Assembly (NCBI GenBank): GCA_963674755.2
Contig: CAXXVS010000002.1
Location: 1,440,001-1,504,000, forward strand
DNA from: Desulfobacterales bacterium
Lineage (GTDB): Bacteria; Desulfobacterota; Desulfobacteria; Desulfobacterales; UBA5852
Reading direction: 5' to 3'
Length of the DNA: 64,000 bases
Part shown: one piece after another, positions 22,795-40,594 of the stretch
Position numbering within the stretch: the stretch's first letter is position 1
Layout: each line of letters starts with the position of its first letter
Made by a program: the position numbers and the translations under genes
The notes under the pieces: generated by a model
What the model saw: only the letters and a program-made list of their open reading frames with translations
Told to the model about the DNA's origin: nothing
Database searches by the model: none

Positions 22795-23958
22795 TCAAAA
22801 CGAGGCTGACGGCTTGAGCTTCCGCAGGCGCCGCCCCGTCTCCGCGAGAATGGCTTCCGTGCGGGCAAAATGCAGGCGGATCAAGTGGTGGACCGGCTCG
22901 TGAAAAAAACTCGACCCCGGCACGGCGGCCACCCCGATCTCCCTAGCCATCCAACGGCAGAATTCCTGATCGTCCCGCACCCCGAAGGCACGGCAGTCCA
23001 CCATCACGTAATAAGCGCCCTGAGGTGTCGTGTAGGTCAGGCCGGCCTCGTCCAGGTAGCCCAGAAACAAATCCCGCTTGCGGGTGTAGTCCTCGCGCAG
23101 CCGGTCATAGTAGGACAGGGGCAGTTCCAGGGCCTGCACGGCCGCCTCCTGCAATGGGGCCGCAGCGCCCACCGTGAGGAAGTCGTGCACCTTGCGCACC
23201 CCCGCCATGATCGCCTCGGGTCCAATCACATAGCCCAACCGCCACCCGGTCATATTGTAGGTTTTGGAAAGGGAGCTGCACGAAATGGTGCGCGCGAACA
23301 TGCCCGGCAGGGATGCCATGTAGCAATGGCGATGGGGCGGGTAGACGATGTGCTCGTAGACCTCGTCGGTGATCACGAACGTATCGTGGGCCTGGGCCAG
23401 ATCCGCGATGAATTCGAGCTCCGCCCGGCTGAAGACTTTACCGGAAGGGTTGGACGGGTTGCAGAGGACCAATGCTTTGGGGTCCTGCCGGAAGGCCTCC
23501 CGCAGCGTTTCCTCGTCGAAGGAATAGTCCGGTGGATGCAGCGGCACGAAGATCGGCCGCGCTCCGCTCAGAATAGCGTCCGCGCCGTAGTTCTCGTAAA
23601 AGGGCGAGAAGACGATCACCTTGTCGCCCGGGTTGCAGGCCGTCATCATGGCACTCATCATGGCCTCGGTGCTGCCGCAGGTGACCACCACGTGGGCATC
23701 GGGATCGAGATCGAGTCCCATCCAGTGGCGCTGCTTGGCCGCCAGGGCGGCCCGGAAACGCGGCGCGCCCCAGGTGACGGCATACTGATGAGGGCCTTCA
23801 GCCATGACCGTTGCCCCGGCCGCCAGCACCTCCGGCGGCGGATCGGCGTCCGGAAAACCCTGGGAAAGATTGATGGCGCCGTACCGATTGGCCACCCGGG
23901 TCATTTCCCGGATGACGGATTCGGTGAAATGGGCGAGCCGGTCGGCGGTCTGGGGCAT
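22795..23958 (-). CDS. Class I/II PLP-dependent aminotransferase
   Basis: INLSQGFPD, NPSNPSGKV, TDEVYEH, SLSKTYNMTGWRLG. Confidence 0.93.
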   Translation of the reverse strand: MPQTADRLAHFTESVIREMTRVANRYGAINLSQGFPDADPPPEVLAAGATVMAEGPHQYAVTWGAPRFRAALAAKQRHWMGLDLDPDAHVVVTCGSTEAMMSAMMTACNPGDKVIVFSPFYENYGADAILSGARPIFVPLHPPDYSFDEETLREAFRQDPKALVLCNPSNPSGKVFSRAELEFIADLAQAHDTFVITDEVYEHIVYPPHRHCYMASLPGMFARTISCSSLSKTYNMTGWRLGYVIGPEAIMAGVRKVHDFLTVGAAAPLQEAAVQALELPLSYYDRLREDYTRKRDLFLGYLDEAGLTYTTPQGAYYVMVDCRAFGVRDDQEFCRWMAREIGVAAVPGSSFFHEPVHHLIRLHFARTEAILAETGRRLRKLKPSASF

Positions 23959-24218: not shown

Positions 24219-25847
24219 TCAGAAATGGCGATGGACAATCCGGCCGTCGAAAACCGTCATATCCACCGTGACGTCGGGCAGCCAGGGCGTGGGATCGCCC
24301 AGGATATTGGCGCTCAAGACCGCCAGGTCGGCCCGTTTGCCCGGAGCCACCGTCCCCACATCAGGGATACCGTGAACCGCGGCCGGGGTGGTGGTGTAGG
24401 CGGCCAGGGCTTCCTGCATCGTCACCCGGGAGGCCGGATGCCAGCCCGCCTCGGGTGTACCGTCCGTGCGGCGGCGGGTGACGGCGGCGTGCATGCCCAG
24501 CAGCGGGGCCGGATCGCATACCGGGCAGTCGGAGCTGAACATGACCGGCGCCCCGCAGTCCATCAGCCGGCGAAAATCGTAAGCCCAGCGACCCTTTTCC
24601 CCCACGGCGGCGTCAATCAGGTTCATGTCCAGGAGCAGGTTGGCCGGTGTCAGGCACAGGGCCAGCGGCAGCCGCCCCAGCCGCTCGGCGTCCTCGGGGC
24701 GGATCATTTGCACGTGCTCGATGCGGTGGGGGACCGCAGGCCGCAAGGCCCCGCTACGCCGGCGGTTCTCCTCCACCCCCTCGAAAAGGGCGATCAATTC
24801 CCGGTTGGCCCGGTCGCCCACGGCATGGATCATCACCGCCAGTCCGGCACGGTCCGCCCGCAAAACGGATTGGGCCAGCTCCGCCATATCCACCAGGGGC
24901 ATGCCGCACCCGGCATCCCGGAAAGGATCCACCATCCAGGCGGTGCGGGCCCCCATGCCGCCGTCGGAGAAATATTTAACGTGGCCGATCCGCAGGCGGT
25001 CGTTGCCGAATCCGGTGCGCAGGCCCAGGTCGATGATCTCGTCCAGGCGGTGCCCCGGCAGGGTCACCCAGGCACGCAGGTCAAGCCGGTCTTCCCGATC
25101 CAGGATCTGGAAGGCCTGCAAGGCCCGGGCGCCGTCCTCGTCGGCCATCAGGCGCACGTCGTGGATCCCGGTTACCCCCCGGCGGTGGAGCGCCCGGGCG
25201 GCTTCGGCATAGGCGGTCCGCACATCGGCGTCCGTGGGCGGTGCCATGGCCTTGCGCACCAGGTTCACGGCCAGTTCCCGCAGGATGCCGGTGGGGCGGC
25301 CGGTGGCGTCCCGTTCGATACGCCCCTCGGGGGGATCCGGGGTGGCTTCACCGATACCGGCCAACGACAGAGCCGCCGAGTTGGCCACGGCCAGATGCAA
25401 GTCGCAGCGCCACAGCAGCACAGGGTGGTCGGGGGCAACCCGGTCCAAAGCATCGCGGTCGGGCTGGCGGGGCACGGTCCAATCCGTCTCGTTCCAGCCC
25501 TGCCCCATGATCCACTGCCCGGGCGGGCGCTGGGCAGCGGCCTGCTGCACCAGTTTCAGCAGATCTTCCAGGCCGGTCAGCCTGTCGAGGGGCAAATCCT
25601 GACGCTTGAGGGACCACTCGTAAAAATGGATATGGGTGTCGATGAAGCCCGGCACCACCAGGCGGCCGCCGAGATCGATCTTCTCCGTGTCCCGGTCGGC
25701 CAGATTCAGGATGGCTTCATTGCCGCCCACCGCCAATATGCGGCCCCGGCCGACAGCCAGGGCCTGGTCGGAAGCCTTCCGCAAAGCGGGGCCGGCGACA
25801 ATGCCGTTGAACAGGATAATTTCAGGTGCGCTGTAGTCAGCCGTCAC
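24219..25847 (-). CDS. Amidohydrolase family 3 (YtcJ-like)
   Basis: PGFIDTHIH, KYFSDG, IHAVGDRAN, HRIEHVQ, FSSDCP, GKRADLAVL. Confidence 0.92.
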   Translation of the reverse strand: MTADYSAPEIILFNGIVAGPALRKASDQALAVGRGRILAVGGNEAILNLADRDTEKIDLGGRLVVPGFIDTHIHFYEWSLKRQDLPLDRLTGLEDLLKLVQQAAAQRPPGQWIMGQGWNETDWTVPRQPDRDALDRVAPDHPVLLWRCDLHLAVANSAALSLAGIGEATPDPPEGRIERDATGRPTGILRELAVNLVRKAMAPPTDADVRTAYAEAARALHRRGVTGIHDVRLMADEDGARALQAFQILDREDRLDLRAWVTLPGHRLDEIIDLGLRTGFGNDRLRIGHVKYFSDGGMGARTAWMVDPFRDAGCGMPLVDMAELAQSVLRADRAGLAVMIHAVGDRANRELIALFEGVEENRRRSGALRPAVPHRIEHVQMIRPEDAERLGRLPLALCLTPANLLLDMNLIDAAVGEKGRWAYDFRRLMDCGAPVMFSSDCPVCDPAPLLGMHAAVTRRRTDGTPEAGWHPASRVTMQEALAAYTTTPAAVHGIPDVGTVAPGKRADLAVLSANILGDPTPWLPDVTVDMTVFDGRIVHRHF

Positions 25848-26881
25848 ATCAGGAATCCTTTGGGAAAGGGGTCGCGGGCATCCAGGACGAACTGGTGGTA
25901 CCCGGTTGTCTGGGCGGTGCCCCGGATCTGCCCCACGATGCCCTTGAAAGGGCCGATGGGCAGGCTTCGGACGATCCGGCCTTCGAACACCGTTCCGAGC
26001 GGTCCGGCATTACGGTAGGCCTCACCGGGCTTGAGTTTTCCTTTGTGGTGGAGCAGGGTCATCTTGGCGGTCGTGCCGGTCCCGCAGGGGGAACGGTCCA
26101 TATGGGATTCGCCGTAGATCACGATTCCCCGGCCGGTGCCGGTTTGGGGGTCCTCGTCATAAAACTCGGTCACGTCCACGGTGTTCACCTCGGGCCGTTC
26201 CGGGTGGTGGACCTTGAAGGCCTGGTTGGCGGCATCGATCACTGCCATGCCCAAGGAAACGAAGCGCGGCTTATTGTCCGGGTGCAGGTCCAAACCAATG
26301 GCCCGGGCCGATACCATGGCGAAAAAGCCGCCCACGCAGACCAGATCGACGGGAATTTTGCCATATCCCTCCACCGTCAGCTCTCGGCCGGTATCGAAGA
26401 CAAAGGAGGGCACCATGTCAATCGCCACGGAGGCGACCCGCCCGTCACGGACACGGGTATGGGCGTCCATGGGGCCGGAGGGGGTGTCCACCGTGATCAC
26501 CTGGTCGCCCTCCGCCACGTTCAACGCGCCGGCTTCCACCAGAGAGGCCACAGCCCCGATGGTGGCGTGGCCGCACAGAAAGGGATAGCGCCGGGCATCC
26601 ATGTAAAAAAGACCGAACTGCCCCCGGGAGCTGACCGGTTCGGTTACCACGGCGGCCATGATGCCCCGGTGGCCCCGGGGCTCACGGGTCAGCAGCATGC
26701 GGACATGGTCGAAACGCGCTTCGAAATCGTCGCGCTTGGCCTTGATGGTGTCGCCCGTCAGCAGCCCCGCACCGCCGATGAGCAGGCGGGTGGGTTCGCC
26801 CTGGGTATGGGAATCGATGGTTACGATACGATCCGGATAGCGGCCTTCAAAACCGCCTCGGATCCGATCCAGATTGAGCAT
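25844..26881 (-). CDS. Proline racemase / hydroxyproline epimerase family protein
   Basis: DSHTQGEPTR, EPRGH, LCGH and DRSPCGTGT (both catalytic Cys present). Confidence 0.92.
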   Translation of the reverse strand: MLNLDRIRGGFEGRYPDRIVTIDSHTQGEPTRLLIGGAGLLTGDTIKAKRDDFEARFDHVRMLLTREPRGHRGIMAAVVTEPVSSRGQFGLFYMDARRYPFLCGHATIGAVASLVEAGALNVAEGDQVITVDTPSGPMDAHTRVRDGRVASVAIDMVPSFVFDTGRELTVEGYGKIPVDLVCVGGFFAMVSARAIGLDLHPDNKPRFVSLGMAVIDAANQAFKVHHPERPEVNTVDVTEFYDEDPQTGTGRGIVIYGESHMDRSPCGTGTTAKMTLLHHKGKLKPGEAYRNAGPLGTVFEGRIVRSLPIGPFKGIVGQIRGTAQTTGYHQFVLDARDPFPKGFLM

Positions 26882-27014: not shown

Positions 27015-28115
27015 TTATTCCAGCGGAATGAGATGGCAGTGATGAGGGGCCACCTGCACACTGACCGACTCGCCGATATTGTAAATACGCGTGCGCATCA
27101 TGCTGATGACGTGAATCTCGCGCCCTCCCCCCAGTTCGATAAAGTAGCTTACCTCACCCCCCATGTAGCTGCGGTCCTTGATGCGGCCCTCGAAATGGTT
27201 CAACCCTTCGGTGGGTTTAAAGTCTTCCAAGGGAAAGGCATCGAAACGCTGGGCACGGACGATCATCTCCACAGCATCGCCTTTGGCAAAGTCCCCCTTT
27301 TTTTCGGCAAAGAGGACGTCGCCGGTTTCGATGCGCACGTCCAGATGGTCATCGCCCACATCCACCACTTCTCCCTTGATAAAGTTGGAATGGCCCAGGA
27401 AGTCGGCTACGAAATGGTTTTTAGGTTCGTTGTAGACCGCCTCGGGGGGGCCTTCCTGCTGTTTACGGCCGTTTTTCATGACCAGGATCTTGTCCGACAT
27501 GCTCAGGGCTTCGCGCTGGTCGTGGGTCACGAAGATCGTGGTGACGCCGATCATCTGCTGGAGATTGTCCACCTCGCGGCGCATCTCTTCCCGCAGGTTT
27601 TCGTCCAGGGCGGACAAAGGTTCGTCCATCAGGAGCACATCCGGCTCGATCACGATGGCCCGCGCCATGGCGATGCGCTGCTGCTGTCCGCCCGAAAGCT
27701 GGCTGGGCATGCGGTTTTCCACTCCGGGCAGACGCACCATCTCCAAGGCCCGGGTCACTTTGTCTTTAACCTCGCCCTTGGGGACGTCCCGGTACTTCAA
27801 ACCGAAAGCCACGTTGTCAAAAATGGTCTTGTGGGGGAACAGGGCATAGTTCTGAAAGATCATGCCCAGGTTGCGTTTGTGGATGGGCGTATCGTTGATC
27901 CGGACCCCTTTGATGAAGATGTCGCCTTCGGTGGGTTCCTCCAGACCGGCCACCATGCGCAGCAAGGTGGTCTTGCCGCATCCGGAAGGCCCCAGCAGGG
28001 TCACCAGGCTGCCCTCCTCGATATCGAAGTTCATCTTCTCCACGGCCGTAACACTGCCGAACCGCTTCATGATCCCCTTGAACTGCACCATCGGCTGTTT
28101 CTTGCCGCTCGCCAC
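27015..28115 (-). CDS. ABC transporter ATP-binding protein (PotA-like)
   Basis: GPSGCGKTT, FQNYALFPH, LSGGQQQR, DEPLSALD, C-terminal TOBE-like region. Confidence 0.93.
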   Translation of the reverse strand: MASGKKQPMVQFKGIMKRFGSVTAVEKMNFDIEEGSLVTLLGPSGCGKTTLLRMVAGLEEPTEGDIFIKGVRINDTPIHKRNLGMIFQNYALFPHKTIFDNVAFGLKYRDVPKGEVKDKVTRALEMVRLPGVENRMPSQLSGGQQQRIAMARAIVIEPDVLLMDEPLSALDENLREEMRREVDNLQQMIGVTTIFVTHDQREALSMSDKILVMKNGRKQQEGPPEAVYNEPKNHFVADFLGHSNFIKGEVVDVGDDHLDVRIETGDVLFAEKKGDFAKGDAVEMIVRAQRFDAFPLEDFKPTEGLNHFEGRIKDRSYMGGEVSYFIELGGGREIHVISMMRTRIYNIGESVSVQVAPHHCHLIPLE

Positions 28116-28147
28116 GATATCCTAACTCCCTTATGCGAATTGTAGGA

Positions 28148-28188
28148 TGCCGGAGTTCAGCAATCCGTACGGAAGCTGAACTCCGGCA
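28148..28188. terminator. Strong stem-loop between binding-protein and ATPase genes
   Basis: Perfect 14-bp stem tgccggagttcagc / gctgaactccggca; may stabilise mRNA or attenuate transcription. Confidence 0.6.
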
Positions 28189-28229
28189 ATGCTAAAATGT
28201 CTTCATCACCAAGCGTGAAAAATGCCACG

Positions 28230-28372
28230 ATGATGGTTTATAAGCGGTGGATTGCGGTTCGGGCCAAGGCCGCAGTGATGTTGGAACCGCAGACGTAGCA
28301 GCGCTACGTCGAGGATTCCAACATCGCGAGAACACCGGCCCGGGCCGCAAGACGCCGTTTAGAAACCATCAT
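28230..28372. repeat. Hairpin element family 1, full-length copy
   Basis: atgatggttt / aaaccatcat ends with nested stems; minus strand carries GTCTT, GGTGTT, AATCCT, TGCGGTT, GCCTT and AATCC motifs also seen at 61824-61969. Confidence 0.85.
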
Positions 28373-29535
28373 TAGCTGCCAGCCTTGATCCTATCCCACA
28401 TCTCCGTCCACTCCACCTGGTGGGCATTCCAGTAGGCCGGATCGGCGAAGAGATACCCTGCCAGTTTGCCGGTGGGATCGAACGAGGGCATCTTCTGGAT
28501 CTTTTCAGGCATCTTCACTTTGGTCGGATCCAGGCTGGGCGGATAATTCTGCGCTTCGGAGACGGCGATGGCGCAGTCGGGGGCCAGCATGAAATTGAGC
28601 AGTTGCTCGGCAACGGGCATATCGGAGCCTTTCAGCACGAAGAGATACTCCATCCAGGAATAGGTCCCCTTGGGCGAAAGATACCCGATGGGATGGCCTT
28701 CCTGCTGCAAAGCCGCCACGCGCCCGGACCAGGCCACGGTGGCGTAGATTTCTTCGTTGGCCAGCAGGCTCATCAGTTCGGCCCCGGAGGCCCAGTACTT
28801 TTTCATCAAGCCGCGTTGTTCGCGCAAAGCGGCCCAGATGGCTTTGAGGTCGGTCATGTTGTTGGGGCTCTGTCCGGTGTACAGGGCCGCGTACCACATA
28901 TTGGTGCGGAAATCGCCGCCCCAGCTGCCCAGCTTACCCTTCAGCTCTTTGTCCCACAGCAACGCAGCGCCTAGCTTTTCGGCCTTCTCTTTGCTGACAT
29001 GCTTGGTGTTGTAGGCAATGCCGGTCTGCCCCAGGTCATAAGGCACCGCCGAGAGGGTTCCCTTGGTGATGGCCCGCAGGGGTTTGATCATGGCCGGCAT
29101 GACGTTCTTCAAGTTGGGGATCTTGGCTTCGTCCAGCACGGAAGCAAATCCCAGTTCCGCGTAGCGGGCATAGTCGAACACCGCACTCAAATGGGCGATG
29201 TTGAACTCGCCGCCGGGCGGATAGGAGGCCTTGACCCGGGTCAGGAAGGAGTTCATGTCACCGAATTCACCGTCGATGACTTTGATTCCGGTGGCCTTGG
29301 TGAAAGGCTCGAAGGCATACTTGCGAAAGGCCTCTGATACGACCCCGCCCCACCCGTCGAAACGGATGGACTTGGCCGCCCAGGCATCCTTCACGGCGCC
29401 GGCGAAGGGTGAACCCACCAGGCCGAGGGAAGCACCGGCCAACCCAAGGTATTTGAGAAAACGGCGCCGGCTGATCATGCCATTGCGATACGCCTCATAT
29501 ACCCGATCCAGTTTGTCTTTCGTTACGATTGCCAT
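28372..29535 (-). CDS. ABC transporter substrate-binding protein (PotD-like) with Tat signal
   Basis: SRRRFLKYLG twin-arginine motif, GWGG, FEPFTKATGIKV, KIPNLKN, AWSGR. Confidence 0.9.
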   Translation of the reverse strand: MAIVTKDKLDRVYEAYRNGMISRRRFLKYLGLAGASLGLVGSPFAGAVKDAWAAKSIRFDGWGGVVSEAFRKYAFEPFTKATGIKVIDGEFGDMNSFLTRVKASYPPGGEFNIAHLSAVFDYARYAELGFASVLDEAKIPNLKNVMPAMIKPLRAITKGTLSAVPYDLGQTGIAYNTKHVSKEKAEKLGAALLWDKELKGKLGSWGGDFRTNMWYAALYTGQSPNNMTDLKAIWAALREQRGLMKKYWASGAELMSLLANEEIYATVAWSGRVAALQQEGHPIGYLSPKGTYSWMEYLFVLKGSDMPVAEQLLNFMLAPDCAIAVSEAQNYPPSLDPTKVKMPEKIQKMPSFDPTGKLAGYLFADPAYWNAHQVEWTEMWDRIKAGS

Positions 29536-29567
29536 GAGGGTGCTCCTTTCGGCAGATGGTTGAAATG

Positions 29568-30365
29568 TTATGGCTTTATCTTGGAAAATTTGCGCGACAG
29601 ATAGCCGGCCAGCAAAGGGGTCGTCACGGTCAGTACGATCATCACCGCTCCCAGGGCATTGATTTCCGGACTGATGGAATTGCGCAGCATGCTGAAAATC
29701 TTGACCGGAACGGTCTGGTTCTGGGCCGTGGCCCAGAAAAGCGTGGCCGTGATATCATCGAATGAAATCGTAAAGGAAAACAAAGCACCCGCTAAAATGG
29801 CCGGCAGCAGCAGCGGGAAAGTGATTTCCTTAAAGGTCTGAAACGGATTGGCCCCCAGCGATTTGGCCGCCTCTTCGTATTCCTTTTTGATCCCCACCAG
29901 CCGGGCCTGGACGATCAAAAGCACATAGGGCAGGGTCAGGACCACGTGCCCGATCAGCAGCAGCACGAAACTCTTGGGCTGCTGCAGCCAGCGTAGAAAA
30001 AGGAGCAGGGCTACGCCCAGGACCACCTCCGGTATCATGATGGGCGACAGTAGAAGGGTATTGATGGTGTTCTTGCCCGGAAACTCGAAGCGGATAAAGG
30101 CCAGGGCGGCCATGATGCCGATGCCGGTGGTAATGACGGCGGTCAACGATCCCAGGATGAGCGAATTCTGAAAAGCGTCGATGATGGAGGCGTTCTGGGC
30201 CAGCCGGATGAACCAGCGCAGACTGAAGCCTTCCATGGGGAAAATGCCGAACTGCTTCGGATTGAAGGCCAGCACGATCACCACCACGATCGGGGCGAAC
30301 ATGAAGACATAAACCAGAAAGGTGTACAGGCGTATCAGCGTCCATCCTATTGAAAACGACCGCAT
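29568..30365 (-). CDS. ABC transporter permease (PotC-like)
   Basis: GFSLRWF, EEAAKSLGA, FTISFDD, ISPEINA. Confidence 0.92.
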   Translation of the reverse strand: MRSFSIGWTLIRLYTFLVYVFMFAPIVVVIVLAFNPKQFGIFPMEGFSLRWFIRLAQNASIIDAFQNSLILGSLTAVITTGIGIMAALAFIRFEFPGKNTINTLLLSPIMIPEVVLGVALLLFLRWLQQPKSFVLLLIGHVVLTLPYVLLIVQARLVGIKKEYEEAAKSLGANPFQTFKEITFPLLLPAILAGALFSFTISFDDITATLFWATAQNQTVPVKIFSMLRNSISPEINALGAVMIVLTVTTPLLAGYLSRKFSKIKP

Positions 30366-30368
30366 GGC

Positions 30369-31235
30369 TCAATTCCCCTGGAAGCTTTTGAAGATCTGGT
30401 TGATGCCCAAGTAGCGGTTATAGGTCCAGACGATGACAAACAGCAGGGAGAGCAGAATCACACTGATGGCCGAACCGAAGGGCCAGTCCAGGGTGCCGAT
30501 CACCCGCTTGAAGATCAGATTGGCGATCATTTCGTTGCCCGGCCCGCCCAGGATCATGGGGGGCAGATAGGTGCCGGCCGTGAGCACGAAGACCAGCAGG
30601 CAGCCGGCGCTGACCCCCGGCAGGCTCAGGGGCAGGGTCACTTCGCGAAAGGCCTGCCACTCGGTGCAGCCCATACAGCGGGCGGCTTCCAGAAGGCTCT
30701 TGTCGATACCTTCCAGACTGACGTAGATGTTGAGCACCATGAAGGGCAGCAGGTACATGATCAGCCCCATGAGGACCGTGAATTCGTTGTAGAGCATTGA
30801 AATGGGCGTATCGATCAGGCCGATTTTGATCAGGAAGTGATTGATCAGACCGCTGTCCCCCATGATGTTGATCCAGCTCATGGTACGAATGATGAAACTG
30901 ACCCAGAAGGGCAGCATGATGAGCAGAAGATAAACCTGCCGGTAGCGGGAGCTGCTGCGGTAAAAGAAGTAGGCCGGGATGTAGCCCATGACGAGGCACA
31001 GGAAGACGGTCTCAAACGCGATGCGGATGGTGCGGATCAGAATACCGGGATAGAAGAAATCCGCGAAGAATTTGGCGTAATTGCCGAACTGGAAGGCCGG
31101 AATGTCCGCCCCGCTGGGGGCCCGCAGCCAGAAGCTGTAGACGATGACGAAACACACCGGTATCACCAGCAGCAGAAAAACAGCGCTCATGGACGGCGCC
31201 AAAAGCGCCCATGGTTTCCAGCCGTCCGATTTCAT
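30369..31235 (-). CDS. ABC transporter permease (PotB-like)
   Basis: LPFWVSFIIR, LLEAARCMGC, LPLSLPG, DWPFGSA; alternative start at 31244. Confidence 0.9.
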   Translation of the reverse strand: MKSDGWKPWALLAPSMSAVFLLLVIPVCFVIVYSFWLRAPSGADIPAFQFGNYAKFFADFFYPGILIRTIRIAFETVFLCLVMGYIPAYFFYRSSSRYRQVYLLLIMLPFWVSFIIRTMSWINIMGDSGLINHFLIKIGLIDTPISMLYNEFTVLMGLIMYLLPFMVLNIYVSLEGIDKSLLEAARCMGCTEWQAFREVTLPLSLPGVSAGCLLVFVLTAGTYLPPMILGGPGNEMIANLIFKRVIGTLDWPFGSAISVILLSLLFVIVWTYNRYLGINQIFKSFQGN

Positions 31236-31463: not shown

Positions 31464-32252
31464 CTAACGGGTGTTTTGCTCCGGGGGCAAAAGCGCCGAC
31501 AGCGTGCGGGCCGTATCCCTGATCATGTCGGCATAACGGGTCATGATCTCCGGGGCGCTCTGCTGCAAAACGGAAAAATCAAAGGAAACCGCCCCTACGC
31601 CTCTGCCGCTCACGGAATCGCGCAGGGCCGCGCCAATGGCCAGAAGGCCGGGCAGCAATTCTTCCACGCACATGGAAAACTGGCGATCCCGCGTCAGCCG
31701 CAATTCGGCATGCAATCGCTCCCGGTCCGTAATGGTTTGGGCCGTACGCGCCACGAGCGGCATGGATGCAAGCTTTTCCGTTAGCTGCTCTTCGCTGAGG
31801 CTGGCCAGATAGGCCTTGCCCAGGGCCGTATTGTGCAGGCAGTTGCGGGCCACATCCGGCAGGCGGTAGGTCAGCGTCTCCTCCGCCTCACAATGGTAGA
31901 TACGCACCAGGGCATCGTTCACCACGAACGCCAGATCGATGCTGATGTTATTTTCACGGTGAATCCGGTCCACGACCTCCCTGATCATCTCCAGATGATC
32001 GGTGGCCCGCATCAGATTCGTGCCCAGCACGATGCTTAAGAGAGACGGCCGGATCTCCTTGGTTTTGCCGTTCTTCTCGAGATAACCCAGTTCCACCAGG
32101 GTGTTGATGTAGCGATAGGTGGACGTCATGTTCAGCCCCAGGGTTTTGGCGATCGCACTCTGGGTCAACACGGGCGTCTCGCGGTTGAAGAGGGCCAGGA
32201 TGCTCAGACCTTTCTCCAGGGACTTTGAAAAATAGAATTTTCCTTTTGACAT
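31464..32252 (-). CDS. IclR-family transcriptional regulator
   Basis: SLEKGLSIL N-terminal HTH, TYRYINTL..LGYL, LHNTALGKAYLA, TAQTITD. Confidence 0.93.
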   Translation of the reverse strand: MSKGKFYFSKSLEKGLSILALFNRETPVLTQSAIAKTLGLNMTSTYRYINTLVELGYLEKNGKTKEIRPSLLSIVLGTNLMRATDHLEMIREVVDRIHRENNISIDLAFVVNDALVRIYHCEAEETLTYRLPDVARNCLHNTALGKAYLASLSEEQLTEKLASMPLVARTAQTITDRERLHAELRLTRDRQFSMCVEELLPGLLAIGAALRDSVSGRGVGAVSFDFSVLQQSAPEIMTRYADMIRDTARTLSALLPPEQNTR

Positions 32253-32278: not shown

Positions 32279-32309
32279 ACTATAATAGTCATCTGATTAC
32301 TATTATAGT
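32279..32309. promoter_or_regulatory. Palindromic operator candidate in the divergent IclR / radical SAM promoter
   Basis: actataatagt-catctgatt-actattatagt: perfect 11-bp inverted repeat in an AT-rich spacer. Confidence 0.65.
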
Positions 32310-32382: not shown

Positions 32383-34851
32383 GTGCCAATGCTTCAAGAT
32401 GAAGCCATCGTTGGGGTTGCGTTCAATCATTCGGATGAAACCAATCAGGTCCCGCTCAATGCTCTGGTGGCGGCCCTCACCGGCTTTCTGGATCAGATGG
32501 GCGTCCAATCCTTTGTGGGAGAAGGGGTTGCGGACATTATCCGGACGGGTGACGGGCCCACCAAACTGGAACGCCTGCTAAAGACCTGCGGCTATCCCGG
32601 AAACCCGGAGGGCTTTTTCCAGGCGCTGCTGCCGCAACTCGGGACAGCGAATGGCGCGGCCCCCATCGCCGTCAACGGCATCGAACTGCCCTATTTGATG
32701 ATGATGGCCCTGATGGAAGTTGTCCTGCCCGGCAACCAGTTCATCTCCGTCAAATCCACGACGCAGTTGGAAAAACTGGCCAATATCACCATCCCCGAAA
32801 CAGACCGGGAGGCCATGCAGGCGGTCCTCGACACCTATCCGGTGCGGCTCTCCATGCACACCATTCGTCAGATGCGCCTCTCCCCCCACGTGGCGTACCA
32901 ATATCTCCCCTTCGTCCAGGAGCTGGATACCGTCGGGCACACCAACACCTGGATCGGCCAGTTTCACCAGGGGCTGCTGGAGCAGATGTACCAAAATCGC
33001 GTCATTTTCCTTTTGAACATGAGCTGTCCGGTCTACTGCCGCTTCTGTTTCCGCAAACACAAGGATTCCCGCAACGAAACCAACCCTACCGTGGAGGATG
33101 TCAAAAAGGCCGTCGCCCATGTGGCGAATTCCCCCGCCGTCAAGGAAATCGTCATGACCGGAGGGGATCCTTTCATGAACCGGGCCAATATGGCCGCGGC
33201 TATCGACGGTTTGATGGACATCGCGCATGTGCAATCCCTGCGCCTGGCCACCCGCTCCATCGCCTACTACCCCCATATGTTCCTGTCCGAGGACGGCCGG
33301 CTGCTCACCTATCTCAAACGCAAGAACCTGGAACTCCAGGAGCGGGGCAAACGCCTGGAAGTGGCCACCCATTTCATCCATCCCGATGAAATTTCGCCCC
33401 AGAGCCTGATGATCATCGCCGACCTGGTGAAAAACGGGATCGCGGTCTATGTCCAAACGCCCCTCCTGGACAAGTGCAACGATGAGGGCCCGGAGCTGGT
33501 GCGTCTCTTCAGCCTGCTGCGCGGGGCCGGGGCCGAACTCCATTACATCTATATCCCCTGCAGCCCCATCCACGGCAACAGTGTCTACTGGTCGCCGATT
33601 GCCAAGGGGCTGGCGGTGGGCAGCTACCTGCGGGCCCACCTCTCCGACCGGGTGATCCCGCGCATCTGCACGGCCACGCCCATCGGCAAAATGGACTGGA
33701 ACACCAGCGGCTGGGCCGTGGAACCCGTGGCGGAAAACGACAACTTCATGTGGATCCGCAGTCCTTACACACCGGACTATTTCAAACAATTCGCCCCCCT
33801 GGCCAACCGGCTCGACAACATCCGGGTCAACCAGGAAGGCACCATCGACATCCAGTATATGGCCCAGATCGGCGATCGATCCCTCTTTCTGGGTGCCCGT
33901 CCCCCCAGGGGCGACCGCGGGACAGCGCCCCCGCCGGAAAGCACGGAGGCGGTGCTGCCGCTGGTGTTGAAATCAGAGGGCCTCGCGCCCTCCCTGGTGG
34001 ATACAGGGTCATCCACCCTTTCGCGCGTTCATGAAACCCGGGTCGAACTGGCGGCTGAATGCACGGAAGCCGATATAGACTATATCTGCCACGATGAGCG
34101 GATCACCGACGTGGTGGTGATCGCGGAGCAAGACGCCACCGCATCCCTTTGTGCCATCGCTAAGCTGATCAGGGCCCTGGAAGACATCCCCCATGTCAAC
34201 GCCGTCCGGCTGCGCAGCCTGGCTTTCAATTACGGACCCGAACGCTACACCCCGCTGGTCATCGACCAACTGGACCGCTGGAATCGACTGACCGTGGTCA
34301 ATCCGCTGCGCCTGGAAATCGAGACCCAGTTCCTGACGGCCGACGAATTTCGCCCGGCGCACGCGCGTTTGGCTCGCCAGCTCAACAACCGGGGCATTAC
34401 CGTCTACAACAACACCCCCCTGCTGGGCCGCGTCAACGACACGCCGGAGGCCATTCACGCTTTGGCCTATGGCTGCCGCCAGGCCGCCATCGAATTTCAC
34501 CACCTCTATGTGGCCGGCCTGCCCGTGCAAAAGGCGTGGAACGCAGCCAACCCCGTGGCGCTGTACGATGTGGTGGACATCGCCACCAAGGTCCGGCGGG
34601 AGGGCAGCGGCCGCGAAATCCCCCGCTATATCATCCGCACGCTCCTGGGCGAGGTGGACTTCGGGCTGTCTTCGGCGATCATCGGGGAGGGGAACGACCT
34701 GCAGGTCAAACTGCTGCCTTACACGCTGGCCTACTTCAAAGCGTTGTCACCTGATTTCAGCTGGCCCGCAGGGGTCCGGGAAGATGAAGACGGCCGACCC
34801 ATCGCGGCGGTCCCCGGCCTGTTGAAGACCACCGCCTTTGCTTTGTCCTGA
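32383..34851 (+). CDS. Tandem-domain KamA-like (lysine 2,3-aminomutase family) radical SAM protein
   Basis: CPVYCRFC, TGGDP, THFIHPDE, QTPLL..CND, IGK; second degenerate repeat (NNTPLLGRVND, SGREIPRY); alternative ATG start at 32389. Confidence 0.88.
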   Translation: MPMLQDEAIVGVAFNHSDETNQVPLNALVAALTGFLDQMGVQSFVGEGVADIIRTGDGPTKLERLLKTCGYPGNPEGFFQALLPQLGTANGAAPIAVNGIELPYLMMMALMEVVLPGNQFISVKSTTQLEKLANITIPETDREAMQAVLDTYPVRLSMHTIRQMRLSPHVAYQYLPFVQELDTVGHTNTWIGQFHQGLLEQMYQNRVIFLLNMSCPVYCRFCFRKHKDSRNETNPTVEDVKKAVAHVANSPAVKEIVMTGGDPFMNRANMAAAIDGLMDIAHVQSLRLATRSIAYYPHMFLSEDGRLLTYLKRKNLELQERGKRLEVATHFIHPDEISPQSLMIIADLVKNGIAVYVQTPLLDKCNDEGPELVRLFSLLRGAGAELHYIYIPCSPIHGNSVYWSPIAKGLAVGSYLRAHLSDRVIPRICTATPIGKMDWNTSGWAVEPVAENDNFMWIRSPYTPDYFKQFAPLANRLDNIRVNQEGTIDIQYMAQIGDRSLFLGARPPRGDRGTAPPPESTEAVLPLVLKSEGLAPSLVDTGSSTLSRVHETRVELAAECTEADIDYICHDERITDVVVIAEQDATASLCAIAKLIRALEDIPHVNAVRLRSLAFNYGPERYTPLVIDQLDRWNRLTVVNPLRLEIETQFLTADEFRPAHARLARQLNNRGITVYNNTPLLGRVNDTPEAIHALAYGCRQAAIEFHHLYVAGLPVQKAWNAANPVALYDVVDIATKVRREGSGREIPRYIIRTLLGEVDFGLSSAIIGEGNDLQVKLLPYTLAYFKALSPDFSWPAGVREDEDGRPIAAVPGLLKTTAFALS

Positions 34852-34864
34852 ACCGGAGGCCGCC

Positions 34865-35530
34865 GTGCACTACCCTTTTTTACTCTACGACCGTAAAATC
34901 CATCACCGTCCCGTCTTCACCGGACTTGAAGGCGCCCCCTACCTCGCCGACCTTTCCCTCCGGAGCGCCCTGCTGAAGGACCGGGCGCCGCGGGACCAGG
35001 GCGCCCTGCAGCAAATTTTAGAAGAAAAGATGGGCCGCGATTATCACTGGGGCCTGGCACCCTACCTCGAGCAGCGCGACACGCTGCTGCGCGACTGCCC
35101 CCAGATGGTGGCTGAAAAACGCTTCATCCATTTGGGCCTGGATGTCATCGTTCCCCTGGCAACCCCCTTGCATGCCCCACTGGATGCGGTGGTGGCCGAA
35201 AGCGGCTATGAGGAAGGCGAGGGCAACTACGGGGGCTATGTCCTGTTGAAGCACGAAGACCCCGGCTTCGAGACCTTCTACAGCTTCTATGGCCACCTGT
35301 GCCGTGATCGCCTGCCGGCCGCCGGGCAAACTTTCCGGGCCGGCACACCCTTTGCCGAAATCGGCGACTTTCACGAAAACGGCCATTGGTTCCACCATAC
35401 CCACATCCAGGTCATTACCCAAAAGGGGCTGGAGGCGGGCTACACGACCAAAGGCTATTGCAGCGCCCCGGACATGGCGGTCATGAATGACCTCTGCCCT
35501 TCCCCCATCCCCTTATTTAAAACCGGATAG
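34865..35530 (+). CDS. M23-family metallopeptidase-like protein without signal peptide
   Basis: HLGLD (HxxxD), GNYGG, YGHL, ENGHWFHHTHIQ (HxH); GTG start after ggagg. Confidence 0.85.
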   Translation: MHYPFLLYDRKIHHRPVFTGLEGAPYLADLSLRSALLKDRAPRDQGALQQILEEKMGRDYHWGLAPYLEQRDTLLRDCPQMVAEKRFIHLGLDVIVPLATPLHAPLDAVVAESGYEEGEGNYGGYVLLKHEDPGFETFYSFYGHLCRDRLPAAGQTFRAGTPFAEIGDFHENGHWFHHTHIQVITQKGLEAGYTTKGYCSAPDMAVMNDLCPSPIPLFKTG

Positions 35531-38113: not shown

Positions 38114-38164
38114 TACCAGCTTCCCGGCGGCCCCTTGCCCCTGCCCGATGAAGGACTTCTTGCC

Positions 38165-39199
38165 ATGGTCCAAAAAGTCATTCTCGATATGGACAATGCC
38201 TTGACCATTCCGGCGCAGGACACCGATGACGCCCTGGCCCTGGCCCTGGCCCTGACATCGCCGGAGCTGGCGGTGCTGGGATGCACCACCTGTGCCGGCA
38301 ATTGCCGGACGCACCAGTCGACACAGAACACCCTGTGTCTTCTGGAAGCGGGCGGCATCCGCACCCTGCCAGTGGCCGAGGGGCACCCCGCCGCCCTGGC
38401 GCGGGACCGGGAGGCCCATTTCCGTTACCTGGCCGCCAAGAGTGAAGGACCCCAAGCCCGCTATTGGAAAGGCTTGCCGCAACCGCCGCTCCCCACTCTG
38501 ACAGCGGCCCCGCAGCCGGCGTGGGAGTTTATCCTGGAAACGGCCCGCCGCCATCCCGGCGAAGTGCTTTTTATCGCCCTGGGATCGTTGACCAACCTGG
38601 CCCTGGCCCTGCTGGAGGATCCGACCGGCGCGGCGCTGCTCAAAGGGGTGATTCACATGGGCGGGGCCTTCCAGCCTGTGGGAGGAGCGCCCTTTGTCTG
38701 GCAGACTGCGGATATTCCCGCCGACATCTGGCGCACCACCCTGCGCTTCAACACCCTTTTCGATCCTGAGGCCGCCGCCGTGGTCTTCCGTTCCGGCCTT
38801 CCCGTGACCCTGGTGCCCGCCAATGTCACCTCCCGGGTGTTCCAGCGGATAGAGCATCTTGACCTACTCCAAGCGGCCGGAACCCCCTGGCATCGCTTCC
38901 TTGAAGCCTATGCCCGCCCCTGGGTGCAATGGTCCCTCAAAGAACGCCGGCTGCCGGGCGCCCATATGCACGACCCCTTGACCGTGGCCACGGTCATCGA
39001 CCCCGCCGTCTGCCGTTTCGAATCGATAAACCTGAGCGTGACGGCCCTGTTGAGGGGTAGAGACGACTGGCTGTCATGGGAGGGCGGCGGTCTGCCGGTC
39101 CGCATCGCCACGGAAGTGGATGCGCCGCGCTTTGAAAACTGGCTGGCCGAGCGCCTGGGCGCGCCTTTGGGGAAAGATTATCTTATCCCCCGGCCATGA
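38165..39199 (+). CDS. Inosine/uridine-preferring nucleoside hydrolase family protein
   Basis: VILDMD..DTDDALAL, LGSLTNLA, HMGGA, FN..FDPEAA, MHDPL. Confidence 0.88.
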   Translation: MVQKVILDMDNALTIPAQDTDDALALALALTSPELAVLGCTTCAGNCRTHQSTQNTLCLLEAGGIRTLPVAEGHPAALARDREAHFRYLAAKSEGPQARYWKGLPQPPLPTLTAAPQPAWEFILETARRHPGEVLFIALGSLTNLALALLEDPTGAALLKGVIHMGGAFQPVGGAPFVWQTADIPADIWRTTLRFNTLFDPEAAAVVFRSGLPVTLVPANVTSRVFQRIEHLDLLQAAGTPWHRFLEAYARPWVQWSLKERRLPGAHMHDPLTVATVIDPAVCRFESINLSVTALLRGRDDWLSWEGGGLPVRIATEVDAPRFENWLAERLGAPLGKDYLIPRP

Positions 39200-39262
39200 A
39201 GCATAAAACCGGCCGTCTTCGGCCCGGATCGTCAGCCACACGAATCGCATTGATCGATAACG

Positions 39263-40594
39263 CTAGGCGGAAAAAGCATTGCCGACCTGGTTATAGACCG
39301 CCATAACGGCGGCGATCCGCCCCAGAACGACATCTTCAGGGTCCCATGGATGGGAAGTGCCGTCAGGATGGCCGGCGGCTTCGGGCAGGTGCTTACCCAA
39401 AAGGGCGGCAGGCGGCGGATACTGCCGCAGGTTGGCCAGCAGGCGCTGCAAGGCGGCTTTGGCCTCGGGCCAGGCCCAGTAGTAGCGGATCCGATCGGAA
39501 AAGGCCTGCCGGCGCAGCCGCTTCAGCTCGGCCGCCGATCCCCGGTAGTAGGCCTGCCAATAGCGGGAATCGGCCAGCATCAGGCGCTCCATGGTTTCCG
39601 GCAAATGGGAAAGCGTCACGCCCTTGTGATCGGCCAGAAGTTCTTCTTCGATCGCCGCGAGCCCGAAAAGCGCCTCCCGCATGGCATAAGTCAGGGCCGG
39701 GCCCACCTTGAGGATGCCGCACTGGTCGGCCACCATGCGGGACAGGGCCGCCGGGGTCTGGAAATCGGTCGAATGGGCCTCGAAGACGAGCCGGTCTTCC
39801 TGCCGGATATAGGCCACCAAGGGCTGCATGCGCTCTGCATCATAGGGATGGATCACCTGCGGTGCGAAATCAGCGCCGGTGTTCACCACCAGGGCCACAA
39901 CCCGCTGCCAGGCCTTTTCCAAGCCCGCCGCTTCAAAGGCCTGGCGGCAGGCGGCGACGGTGTCCCGGACATGGACCGCCCCGCTCACCGGCGCCAACGC
40001 GGTCTGCCCGTCCTGCCCTCCCGGAAGGGGCACGTCGGATCCGATCACGTACCAGGGCGGCGCCACCCGCTGATCATGGGCGGTTTCCTCCGCCACACGG
40101 CACAACGCCGCGCTGCGGCGGCAAATCAGCGCCAGGGGAAGGCTGCCGTCCGGCTCCCGGGGATCGCCGACGCAGGGGGAGGAGGTGTCCAGGTGAATTT
40201 TCTGGTAGCCGGCGGCCACGCAGGCCGCGGCCAGTTCCATGGCCCTGGACAGGGCGTCCCCGGCGTTCTCGCCACGCCAGGGATAGGGCCCCAAATGGTC
40301 CGCCCCCAACAGCAGCCGGTGGCCGGGCAGGCCGGCGGCCTCCGCCAGCTGACGCACCCGGCGGCCGAACGCGGCCGGGGTCCATCCCGCATACCCACCG
40401 GAGAGATTGACCTGGCTGGCGGTGGACTCGATCAGGGCCGGCGCTCCGTCCCGCCGGGCCTGCTGCAGCACCGCCCGGACCGCATAGGGGCTGGCCGTGC
40501 AGGCAGCCGTCAGGGCGCACGGCCGTCCCTGCTTATGACGGCGAACCACTTCCCGAAGGACGGTCGCGGCCGGCATGTCCCGCCATCTGGGCAT
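39263..40594 (-). CDS. gatZ: GatZ/KbaZ family protein (tagatose-6-phosphate 4-epimerase-like)
   Basis: IESTASQVN..GGY, GADHLGP, KIHLDTS, FEAHSTDFQ, LKVGPALT, FSDRIRYYW. Confidence 0.9.
   Translation of the reverse strand: MPRWRDMPAATVLREVVRRHKQGRPCALTAACTASPYAVRAVLQQARRDGAPALIESTASQVNLSGGYAGWTPAAFGRRVRQLAEAAGLPGHRLLLGADHLGPYPWRGENAGDALSRAMELAAACVAAGYQKIHLDTSSPCVGDPREPDGSLPLALICRRSAALCRVAEETAHDQRVAPPWYVIGSDVPLPGGQDGQTALAPVSGAVHVRDTVAACRQAFEAAGLEKAWQRVVALVVNTGADFAPQVIHPYDAERMQPLVAYIRQEDRLVFEAHSTDFQTPAALSRMVADQCGILKVGPALTYAMREALFGLAAIEEELLADHKGVTLSHLPETMERLMLADSRYWQAYYRGSAAELKRLRRQAFSDRIRYYWAWPEAKAALQRLLANLRQYPPPAALLGKHLPEAAGHPDGTSHPWDPEDVVLGRIAAVMAVYNQVGNAFSA

What the first reader, a model, noticed from the sequence alone, without database searches (positions are those of the whole stretch)
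32383..34851. Tandem KamA-like radical SAM enzyme: active plus dead domain, non-lysine pocket
Seen: 822 aa, about twice a normal KamA. Domain 1 keeps CxxxCxxC (33025-33048), GGDP and a PLP-lysine candidate (TPIGK). Domain 2 (from about 34000) repeats the fold motifs (HETRV, ETQFLTADE, NNTPLLGRVND, SGREIPRY) but has lost the Cys triad and has GE in place of GK. Established: lysine 2,3-aminomutase binds the substrate epsilon-amine with two Asp in YQCD and VVDAP. By-eye alignment gives YIPCS and CTATP here, with no acidic residue. It also lacks the Lys/Asn pair that I recall for glutamate 2,3-aminomutase. Inference: a fused pseudo-dimeric aminomutase with a new substrate.
Basis: partly seen in the sequence, partly recalled or inferred. 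Interest (0 to 1): 0.82.

Follow-up and report, generated by a model that had tools for sequence, protein, structure and literature searches.

The report
Live-plus-dead tandem KamA aminomutase
This sulfate-reducer gene encodes an uncharacterised amino-group-shifting enzyme fused to a cofactor-less copy of itself, and its gene partners suggest that it interconverts acetylated lysine and the salt-protection solute N-acetyl-beta-lysine rather than plain lysine.

Summary
Observation confirmed. The 820-aa ORF (start ATG 32389) has a ~115-aa N-domain with no family match, an intact KamA module (C213/C217/C220, R222, K434) and a second KamA module (27% identical, E 8e-22) without the Cys triad or PLP lysine. 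In 259 of 259 homologs both Asp of the lysine pocket are replaced (S392, A429) and the glutamate-type Lys/Asn pair is absent. Module 2 is under purifying selection and is modelled as a pseudo-two-fold partner packed on module 1's PLP-lysine face. The gene lies in an IclR-controlled importer cluster with proline racemase-like, amidohydrolase, aminotransferase and M23-like genes. Among 121 related genomes, all 20 with the beta-lysine acetyltransferase AblB carry this enzyme, none of 90 without it has AblB, and 19 of the 20 lack the usual partner AblA. [quoted passage not shown] Rivals: an atypical free-lysine aminomutase (0.22), an ornithine-type substrate (0.15). The substrate is not shown. The scan noted this family before in 7 other genomes; my paper searches found no description.

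The parts
32389..34851 (+). Tandem KamA-like radical SAM/PLP enzyme, 820 aa (called KAM2 here)
   Evidence: model pLDDT 90.9, pTM 0.92
32389..32733 (+). N-terminal ~115-aa helical domain with beta-hairpin, no family match
   Evidence: no Pfam hit; model pLDDT 85; best VIA Z 4.0 among 48,161 chains
32734..33888 (+). Module 1, intact KamA core (residues 116-500)
   Evidence: 2A5H E 1.6e-19; VIA Z 32.2, rmsd 2.2 A, 338 aligned; 54 of 385 columns invariant in 259 homologs
33025..33054 (+). CxxxCxxC (C213, C217, C220) and R222 (= LAM R134, substrate carboxylate, role recalled)
   Evidence: invariant in 259 of 259; coordinates
33562..33564 (+). S392, at LAM D293; preceded by an invariant one-residue insertion, P390
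   Evidence: S 252, H 6, R 1 of 259
33646..33651 (+). D420-R421 (SDR) where LAM has S320-G321-Y322; contacts the dead PLP site of module 2 in the model
33673..33690 (+). A429 (at LAM D330) to K434 (PLP lysine, LAM K337), shortened loop ATPIGK
33994..34851 (+). Module 2, cofactor-less KamA copy (residues 536-820)
   Evidence: dN/dS 0.13-0.28 in 14 of 15 pairs, one saturated
34594..34614 (+). R736-x3-S740-G741-R742, invariant in module 2 (= LAM R316, S320, G321); at the modelled interface with the K434 region
   Evidence: 259 of 259; contact 436-736
34865..35530 (+). M23-fold Zn hydrolase without obvious signal peptide, 13 bp downstream; HxxxD and HxH kept; like the middle of PRK06148
   Evidence: motifs in 64 of 64; in 65 of 81 loci
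32279..32309 (.). Two 11-bp palindromes ACTAT(A/T)ATAGT, 20 bp apart: probable IclR operator
   Evidence: conserved in the alignment of 68 intergenic regions; 3 exact copies in the 6.7-Mb genome, 2 of them here
31464..32252 (-). IclR-family regulator, divergent from KAM2
   Evidence: 68 of 81 loci
27015..31232 (-). PotABCD-like ABC importer: two permeases, Tat-type binding protein, ATPase
   Evidence: binding protein in 59 of 81 loci
25844..26881 (-). Proline racemase-family protein, Cys/Cys, with Tyr at two Phe positions of proline racemases
   Evidence: 49 of 81 loci
24219..25847 (-). Amidohydro_3 metal-dependent amidohydrolase, overlapping the racemase stop
   Evidence: 44 of 81 loci
22795..23958 (-). 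Class I aminotransferase ending the divergent operon
   Evidence: 19 of 81 loci, often cut off by the 10-kb flank

Best explanation
KAM2 is a single-chain pseudo-dimer of the LAM type. Module 1 uses [4Fe-4S]/SAM and PLP on K434 to shift an amino group between C2 and C3 (chemistry inferred from conserved residues). Module 2 binds no cluster and no PLP. It replaces the partner subunit of the LAM dimer: its invariant RxxxSGR segment closes module 1's PLP face, and module 1's D420 may fill module 2's empty phosphate site (packing modelled, roles inferred). [quoted passage not shown] In the favoured salvage direction, the ABC system imports NeABL, KAM2 converts it to N-epsilon-acetyl-L-lysine, and the M23-like or Amidohydro_3 hydrolase removes the acetyl group, pulling the reaction toward L-lysine; AblB, where present, lets free beta-lysine enter. 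The same enzyme could run toward osmolyte synthesis if this AblB acetylates alpha-lysine.
For: Radical SAM, carboxylate and PLP residues are invariant, and no acid lies at either pocket site, in 259 of 259 homologs. Mutating the D330-type Asp in two LAMs gives activity on neutral alanine (PMC9850924, passages; equivalence to D330 is my inference). All 20 AblB-positive genomes of 121 relatives carry KAM2, 0 of 90 KAM2-negative ones carry AblB, and only 1 of the 20 has AblA; 14 of 14 outside the own genus. In a phylum sample of 301, AblB is in 12 genomes: 9 beside AblA, 2 in the only two KAM2 genomes. AblB adjoins KAM2 or ends its operon in 19 of 81 and 15 of 80 loci, in several gene orders. 11 of 31 KAM2 genomes have no full AblB, 6 of them keeping the M23 hydrolase, which fits import and deacetylation without an acetyltransferase. 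KAM2 sits beside a true LAM in L018, L046, L151 and L162, which argues against redundancy. IclR control with a dedicated operator and importer suits substrate-induced salvage. Interface model score 0.94, best control 0.00 (mark reached by 116 of 157 solved complexes and 2 of 215 mismatches; runs agree in at least 94% of contacts; partner pLDDT at least 91), with equivalent residues from both modules; a like complex, the LAM dimer, is solved, so this shows likeness only.
Against: No substrate was docked or assayed, and I had no coordinates to inspect the pocket. AblB is described as specific for beta-lysine (PMC9049628, passages), and 5 AblB+KAM2 genomes have no other KamA, which is simplest if KAM2 itself makes beta-lysine. 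The proline racemase (18 of 21 orthologs in KAM2 genomes) and an ornithine aminotransferase in 3 loci have no clear place in the acetyl-lysine route. One orphan AblB lacks both AblA and KAM2 (G066). In this genome ablB is far from the cluster and carries no operator copy. Genomes are related, so the Fisher p of 2e-15 overstates. Acetyl-specific activity of the two hydrolases is assumed.
Confidence: 0.42

Rival explanations
1. KAM2 is an atypical lysine 2,3-aminomutase that stands in for AblA: it makes beta-lysine from free L-lysine, binding the epsilon-amine by other residues, and AblB then makes NeABL.
For: 19 of 20 AblB genomes lack AblA and 5 have no other KamA. ablB shares an operon with a lysine/arginine/ornithine importer in G000 and G194. 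KAM2-linked AblBs keep the AblB motifs and are not cleanly separated from AblA-linked ones in the tree. Other conserved acids exist (E383, D420, D436, E743).
Against: Both amine-binding Asp are missing in 259 of 259. KAM2 lies next to a true LAM in 4 loci. 11 of 31 KAM2 genomes have no full AblB. Hydrolases and IclR control suggest salvage.
Confidence: 0.22
2. The substrate is ornithine or N-delta-acetyl-ornithine (a shorter diamino acid), giving a beta-ornithine derivative linked to proline metabolism.
For: A proline racemase-like gene is in 49 of 81 loci. An ornithine aminotransferase passing TIGR01885 follows KAM2 in L162 (a like gene in L151) and is divergent from the importer in L192. N-delta-acetyl-ornithine is a known compatible solute (PMC9049628).
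Against: AblB passes the beta-lysine acetyltransferase model. Racemase plus importer plus amidohydrolase can lie apart from KAM2 (L187, L191, L192), and loci with the LAO-type importer lack the racemase, so it may be a second module. I know of no natural beta-ornithine osmolyte (recall).
Confidence: 0.15
3. Another neutral or N-modified substrate (glutamine/beta-glutamine, N-epsilon-methyl-lysines, an epsilon-linked peptide) or different PLP-radical chemistry.
For: A neutral polar pocket (S/H392, T430) and W188 would also suit an amide or a methylammonium. MttB-family demethylases follow KAM2 in L151 and L162. A glutamate-aminomutase-like gene is near in L139. The M23 fold is a peptidase fold.
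Against: None of these explains the 20 of 20 link to AblB. MttB is seen in only 2 of the 80 loci that I mapped (11 loci read in full).
Confidence: 0.17
4. Module 2 is a decaying remnant with no role, and the protein works as an ordinary KamA homodimer.
For: Module 2 evolves faster: long branch in the tree, 14 of 285 invariant columns against 54 of 385; two distant homologs are shortened at the C-end (P0131, P0135).
Against: dN/dS 0.13-0.28; invariant residues cluster at the modelled interface; the fusion is kept down to 37% identity; LAM's C-terminal multimerisation domain has no match here.
Confidence: 0.04

Closest known systems
Lysine 2,3-aminomutase (KamA/LAM of Clostridium subterminale, PDB 2A5H; AblA, TIGR03820)
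   Same: [quoted passage not shown]
   Different: Two modules in one chain, one dead; extra N-domain; no LAM_C domain; D293 to Ser, D330 to Ala, shortened GGGGK loop; 151 bits against a cut-off of 525.
Glutamate 2,3-aminomutase (TIGR04368) and arginine 2,3-aminomutase (TIGR04468)
   Same: KamA-family enzymes with changed substrate pockets.
   Different: 135 of 650 and 147 of 600 bits; no Lys/Asn pair (pair recalled); single-module enzymes.
AblA/AblB and Bacillus KamA/YodP route to N-epsilon-acetyl-beta-lysine
   Same: A KamA-type mutase coupled to a TIGR03827 acetyltransferase.
   Different: AblB here mostly occurs without AblA; the cluster adds an importer, IclR, two hydrolases, a racemase and an aminotransferase, and the order acetylate/mutate may be reversed.
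Uncharacterised single-module KamA relatives (P0169, P0174, P0184, P0200, P0205)
   Same: Nearest branch in the tree; share LER-x-Y, the short TxxGK loop and the C-terminal PYT segment.
   Different: About 30-36% identical, one module, varied pocket residues; functions unknown.

Membership tests
Radical SAM superfamily (module 1) | CxxxCxxC and GGD/E motif in a partial TIM barrel | tested here: met
   PF04055 35.4 bits over cut-off 29.5; triad invariant in 259 of 259
KamA-like PLP fold type VII | LAM fold with PLP lysine and phosphate ligands | tested here: met
   VIA Z 32.2 to 2a5h_B; K434, Y201, R204, R285 invariant; ligand roles recalled
KamA family, TIGR00238 | Score over curated cut-off 199.2 | tested here: not met
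   152.9 bits; P0123 160.6, P0137 123.7: a divergent branch
Lysine 2,3-aminomutase (TIGR03820) | Cut-off 525.4; Asp293 and Asp330; C-terminal LAM_C domain | tested here: not met
   151.3 bits; S392/A429; no PF12544 hit
Lysine 2,3-aminomutase (TIGR03820) | Turns over L-lysine | not testable with these tools
   needs an anaerobic assay
Glutamate 2,3-aminomutase (TIGR04368) | Cut-off 650; Lys/Asn at the two pocket sites (recalled) | tested here: not met
   135.3 bits; 0 of 259 with K392 or N429
Arginine 2,3-aminomutase (TIGR04468) | Cut-off 600 | tested here: not met
   146.6 bits; its pocket residues were not compared
EpmB (TIGR03821) | Cut-off 369.3; efp/epmA neighbourhood | tested here: not met
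   129.8 bits; conserved neighbours are other genes
Internal duplication of KamA | Modules homologous and sister to each other | tested here: inconclusive
   Homology met. Quick tree: module 1 + module 2 on one side of a branch with SH-aLRT 94, not starred; module 2 has a long branch
AblB (TIGR03827), partner gene | Score over cut-off 205.1 | tested here: met
   269-340 bits; activity on alpha- versus beta-lysine not testable
Proline racemase (PRK13969), neighbour | Two catalytic Cys; cut-off 556 | tested here: inconclusive
   CGH and SPCG kept but 308 bits; Tyr replaces two Phe

The most novel reading that the evidence does not exclude
KAM2 is a new radical SAM activity, N-epsilon-acetyl-lysine 2,3-aminomutase, built as a half-dead single-chain pseudo-dimer. 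[quoted passage not shown]
Probability: 0.3. Interest if true: 0.8.

Novelty: new variant of a known kind. Interest (0 to 1): 0.62.

Why it matters
The few characterised KamA-type aminomutases are homo-oligomers acting on free lysine, glutamate or arginine (recalled). A conserved live-plus-dead single chain would show which residues the partner subunit supplies and would be a convenient scaffold for beta-amino-acid biocatalysis with a neutral pocket. If the substrate is N-epsilon-acetyl-beta-lysine, it would give the fate of an abundant archaeal osmolyte in anoxic saline sediments and explain the many ablB genes without ablA in this order. It would also give a small-molecule role to a cytosolic M23 protein. 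Cultured Desulfosarcina and Desulfopila strains carry the cluster, so it is directly testable.

Tried and rejected
Primary papers on LAM structure, glutamate aminomutase, a radical SAM review and hydroxylysine kinase were not held, so LAM residue roles other than the D330 type, the EAM Lys/Asn pair, the beta-favouring equilibrium and the meaning of PRK06148 are recalled. Nine paper searches were answered (listings only, except passages read in PMC9105233, PMC9850924, PMC6411801, PMC9081730, PMC9049628, PMC2821294); none showed a tandem KamA or this cluster; subscription papers and supplements were not seen. N-domain: no Pfam hit and best Z 4.0; a weak match does not show a new fold. Operator scan: no regulon beyond this locus in the own genome (29 sites with at most 1 mismatch, 3 exact) or in 5 relatives. 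Promoter/terminator scan at chance level. No RNA holder listed. Binding protein, amidohydrolase and M23 searches named no ligand. The class III aminotransferase between LAM and KAM2 in L151/L162 looks to me like 3-aminobutyryl-CoA transaminase of lysine fermentation (recall); libraries gave only GSA-mutase-like hits under cut-off. A pyrrolysine-salvage idea was dropped for lack of support. The careful KamA tree did not finish; the quick tree is cited. I did not search for longer or shorter fused forms with the search for homologous proteins; one search shows partial hits that may be fragments. G320's copy is broken in module 2 and was counted as present.

Full report
Observation. The ORF is real and starts at ATG 32389 (820 aa). 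It has an N-domain of about 115 aa, module 1 (116-500), a linker and module 2 (536-820). The modules align at 27% over 233 aa, E 8e-22, and module 2 alone matches six KamA-type models. The whole protein stays under every KamA cut-off (best 152.9 of 199.2 bits). The AlphaFold model is confident (pLDDT 90.9, pTM 0.92) and matches C. subterminale lysine 2,3-aminomutase (LAM, 2A5H) at Z 32.2, rmsd 2.2 A, well above the next row (Z 14.5).

Family. The protein search gave 974 hits among 8000 scored candidates, the best 120 at 71% identity or more; full-length relatives reach down to 37%. Loci were found in 224 GTDB stretches (best 80 kept) and at least 521 metagenome stretches (best 80 kept); the named ones are mostly Desulfobacterales and Desulfobulbales. 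It is patchy: 31 of 121 relatives, 2 of 301 in a phylum sample. The scan's own notes list 7 other genomes with this design; my NeABL idea was written down before I read them.

Residues. I aligned 259 distinct full-length sequences (P0002-P0137 of 730 aa or more, and locus ORFs of 760 aa or more; shorter ones were left out; the set leans to close relatives). C213, C217, C220, R222, Y201, R204, R285 and K434 are invariant. Against 2A5H and two true AblA proteins, S392 takes the place of D293 and A429 of D330; no sequence has an acid at or near either site, none has the glutamate-type Lys/Asn pair, and none has Lys at 755. LAM residue roles are recalled because the structure paper was not held; a review passage says that changing this active-site Asp in two LAMs gives alanine 2,3-aminomutase activity (PMC9850924).

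Module 2 is kept. dN/dS is 0.13-0.28 against 0.07-0.14 for module 1 (14 of 15 pairs; one saturated). Invariant residues include R546, H548, D574, R607 and R736-S740-G741-R742. A complex model of the two halves scored 0.94, best control 0.00 (116 of 157 solved complexes and 2 of 215 mismatches reach the mark; contacts agree in at least 94%; partner pLDDT at least 91). The LAM dimer is solved, so the pass shows likeness. The useful part is the symmetry: 202-204, 411-426, 434-442 and 459-461 of module 1 face the equivalent 549-551, 732-748, 755-761 and 776-778 of module 2. Module 2 keeps LAM's S320-G321, module 1 has S419-D420 there. I infer that module 2 completes module 1's PLP site and that D420 fills module 2's empty one; the tool listed no PLP contacts, so this is not shown. 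[quoted passage not shown] A quick tree puts both modules on one side of a branch (SH-aLRT 94, unstarred), nearest to unstudied single-module proteins and far from LAM: duplication is likely, not proven.

Neighbourhood. Of 81 loci (window included, many contigs short): IclR 68, M23-like 65, binding protein 59, proline racemase-like 49, amidohydrolase 44, aminotransferase 19, AblB 19. Of 80 metagenome loci: 25, 38, 37, 25, 29, 11, 15. These sets may overlap. Gene order differs between groups of loci, and 8 of 81 carry a polar-amino-acid importer instead. A doubled palindrome ACTAT(A/T)ATAGT is conserved between iclR and the gene and marks no other operon that I could identify.

Co-occurrence. 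In the same 121 genomes AblB over cut-off is in 20, all KAM2-positive; 0 of 90 KAM2-negative genomes have it; AblA over cut-off is in 8, and only G304 has both AblA and AblB. Five AblB+KAM2 genomes (86-97% complete) have no other KamA at E 1e-50. Eleven KAM2 genomes have no full AblB (G333 has a fragment at what may be a contig end). M23-like: 20 of 23 in KAM2 genomes; racemase ortholog: 18 of 21. Control: in the phylum sample AblB is in 12 of 301 genomes, 9 next to AblA, 2 in the two KAM2 genomes, and 1 (G066) with neither. Kin are not independent, so I give weight to the pattern and not to the p value. In this genome ablB lies at C2:2232136-2232930 in front of a lysine/arginine/ornithine importer, and no AblA passes its cut-off.

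Mechanism. Shown: architecture, residues, selection, synteny, co-occurrence. Modelled: fold and module packing. Inferred: PLP-radical 1,2-amino shift; a neutral side chain; a link to beta-lysine acetylation. The reading that joins these is an aminomutase for N-epsilon-acetyl-lysine and NeABL (0.42). Importer, IclR and hydrolases, and KAM2 genomes without AblB, favour salvage; orphan AblB beside a lysine importer allows synthesis. Against it: AblB is described as beta-lysine-specific (PMC9049628) and some genomes have no other source of beta-lysine, which fits KAM2 as an unusual LAM (0.22); but KAM2 lies next to a true LAM in four loci. The racemase and ornithine aminotransferase genes fit ornithine better (0.15), though they can sit apart from KAM2.

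Known and new. It works like LAM but fails membership of the lysine, glutamate, arginine and EpmB families. Nine paper searches showed no description; the library lacks most subscription papers. Verdict: a real, conserved, undescribed variant of a known enzyme kind with a testable substrate prediction; interest 0.62.

Noticed in passing
L081:7675-8748 (G000:C3:1767675-1768748): A 357-aa KamA paralog with YCE and VIATNIGK at the pocket sites (Glu/Ala), best match arginine 2,3-aminomutase at 354 of 600 bits, downstream of a peptide-type binding protein and an MlrC/M81 peptidase: another orphan aminomutase.
   Followed up: partly
L082:4746-7613 (G000:C3:2348.7-2351.6 kb): KamA with intact YQCD/VVDAP (498 of 525 bits) followed by a D-Ala-D-Ala-ligase-like gene; matches the orphan beta-lysine ligase cassette in the scan's notes.
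   Followed up: partly
L083:8109-9029 (G000:C2:2232136-2232930): ablB without ablA, at the head of a lysine/arginine/ornithine ABC importer; the same pairing occurs in G194 (L164).
   Followed up: yes
L151:4392-13399 and L162:7064-15316: Run of true LAM, class III aminotransferase, KAM2, ornithine aminotransferase, proline racemase (L151 only) and MttB-family methyltransferase.
   Followed up: partly
L136:12869-18867: GABA/5-aminovalerate transaminase, two CoA-transferase subunits and putrescine aminotransferase downstream of the cluster.
   Followed up: partly
window 25844-26881: Proline racemase subfamily with Tyr in RRYP(Y/F)LCGH and YGESHMDRSPCG, conserved in nearly all of 48 copies; substrate unknown.
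   Followed up: partly
window 34865-35530: Cytosolic-looking M23 subfamily related to the middle domain of PRK06148; Atlas shows sister clusters in Bacteroidota; 3 genomes keep it without KAM2.
   Followed up: partly
window 38135-40594: Nucleoside hydrolase followed by a 443-aa ORF with no Pfam hit at 1e-3 that reads like a tagatose-6-phosphate kinase/GatZ protein (recall).
   Followed up: no
L209:2025-2885 (G066): Orphan ablB beside hydrogenase-4-like genes, with neither ablA nor KAM2 found in the genome.
   Followed up: partly
several relatives: Many genomes of the order carry ~600-aa KamA-family ORFs (TIGR00238 about 320-335 bits), a further long KamA form.
   Followed up: no
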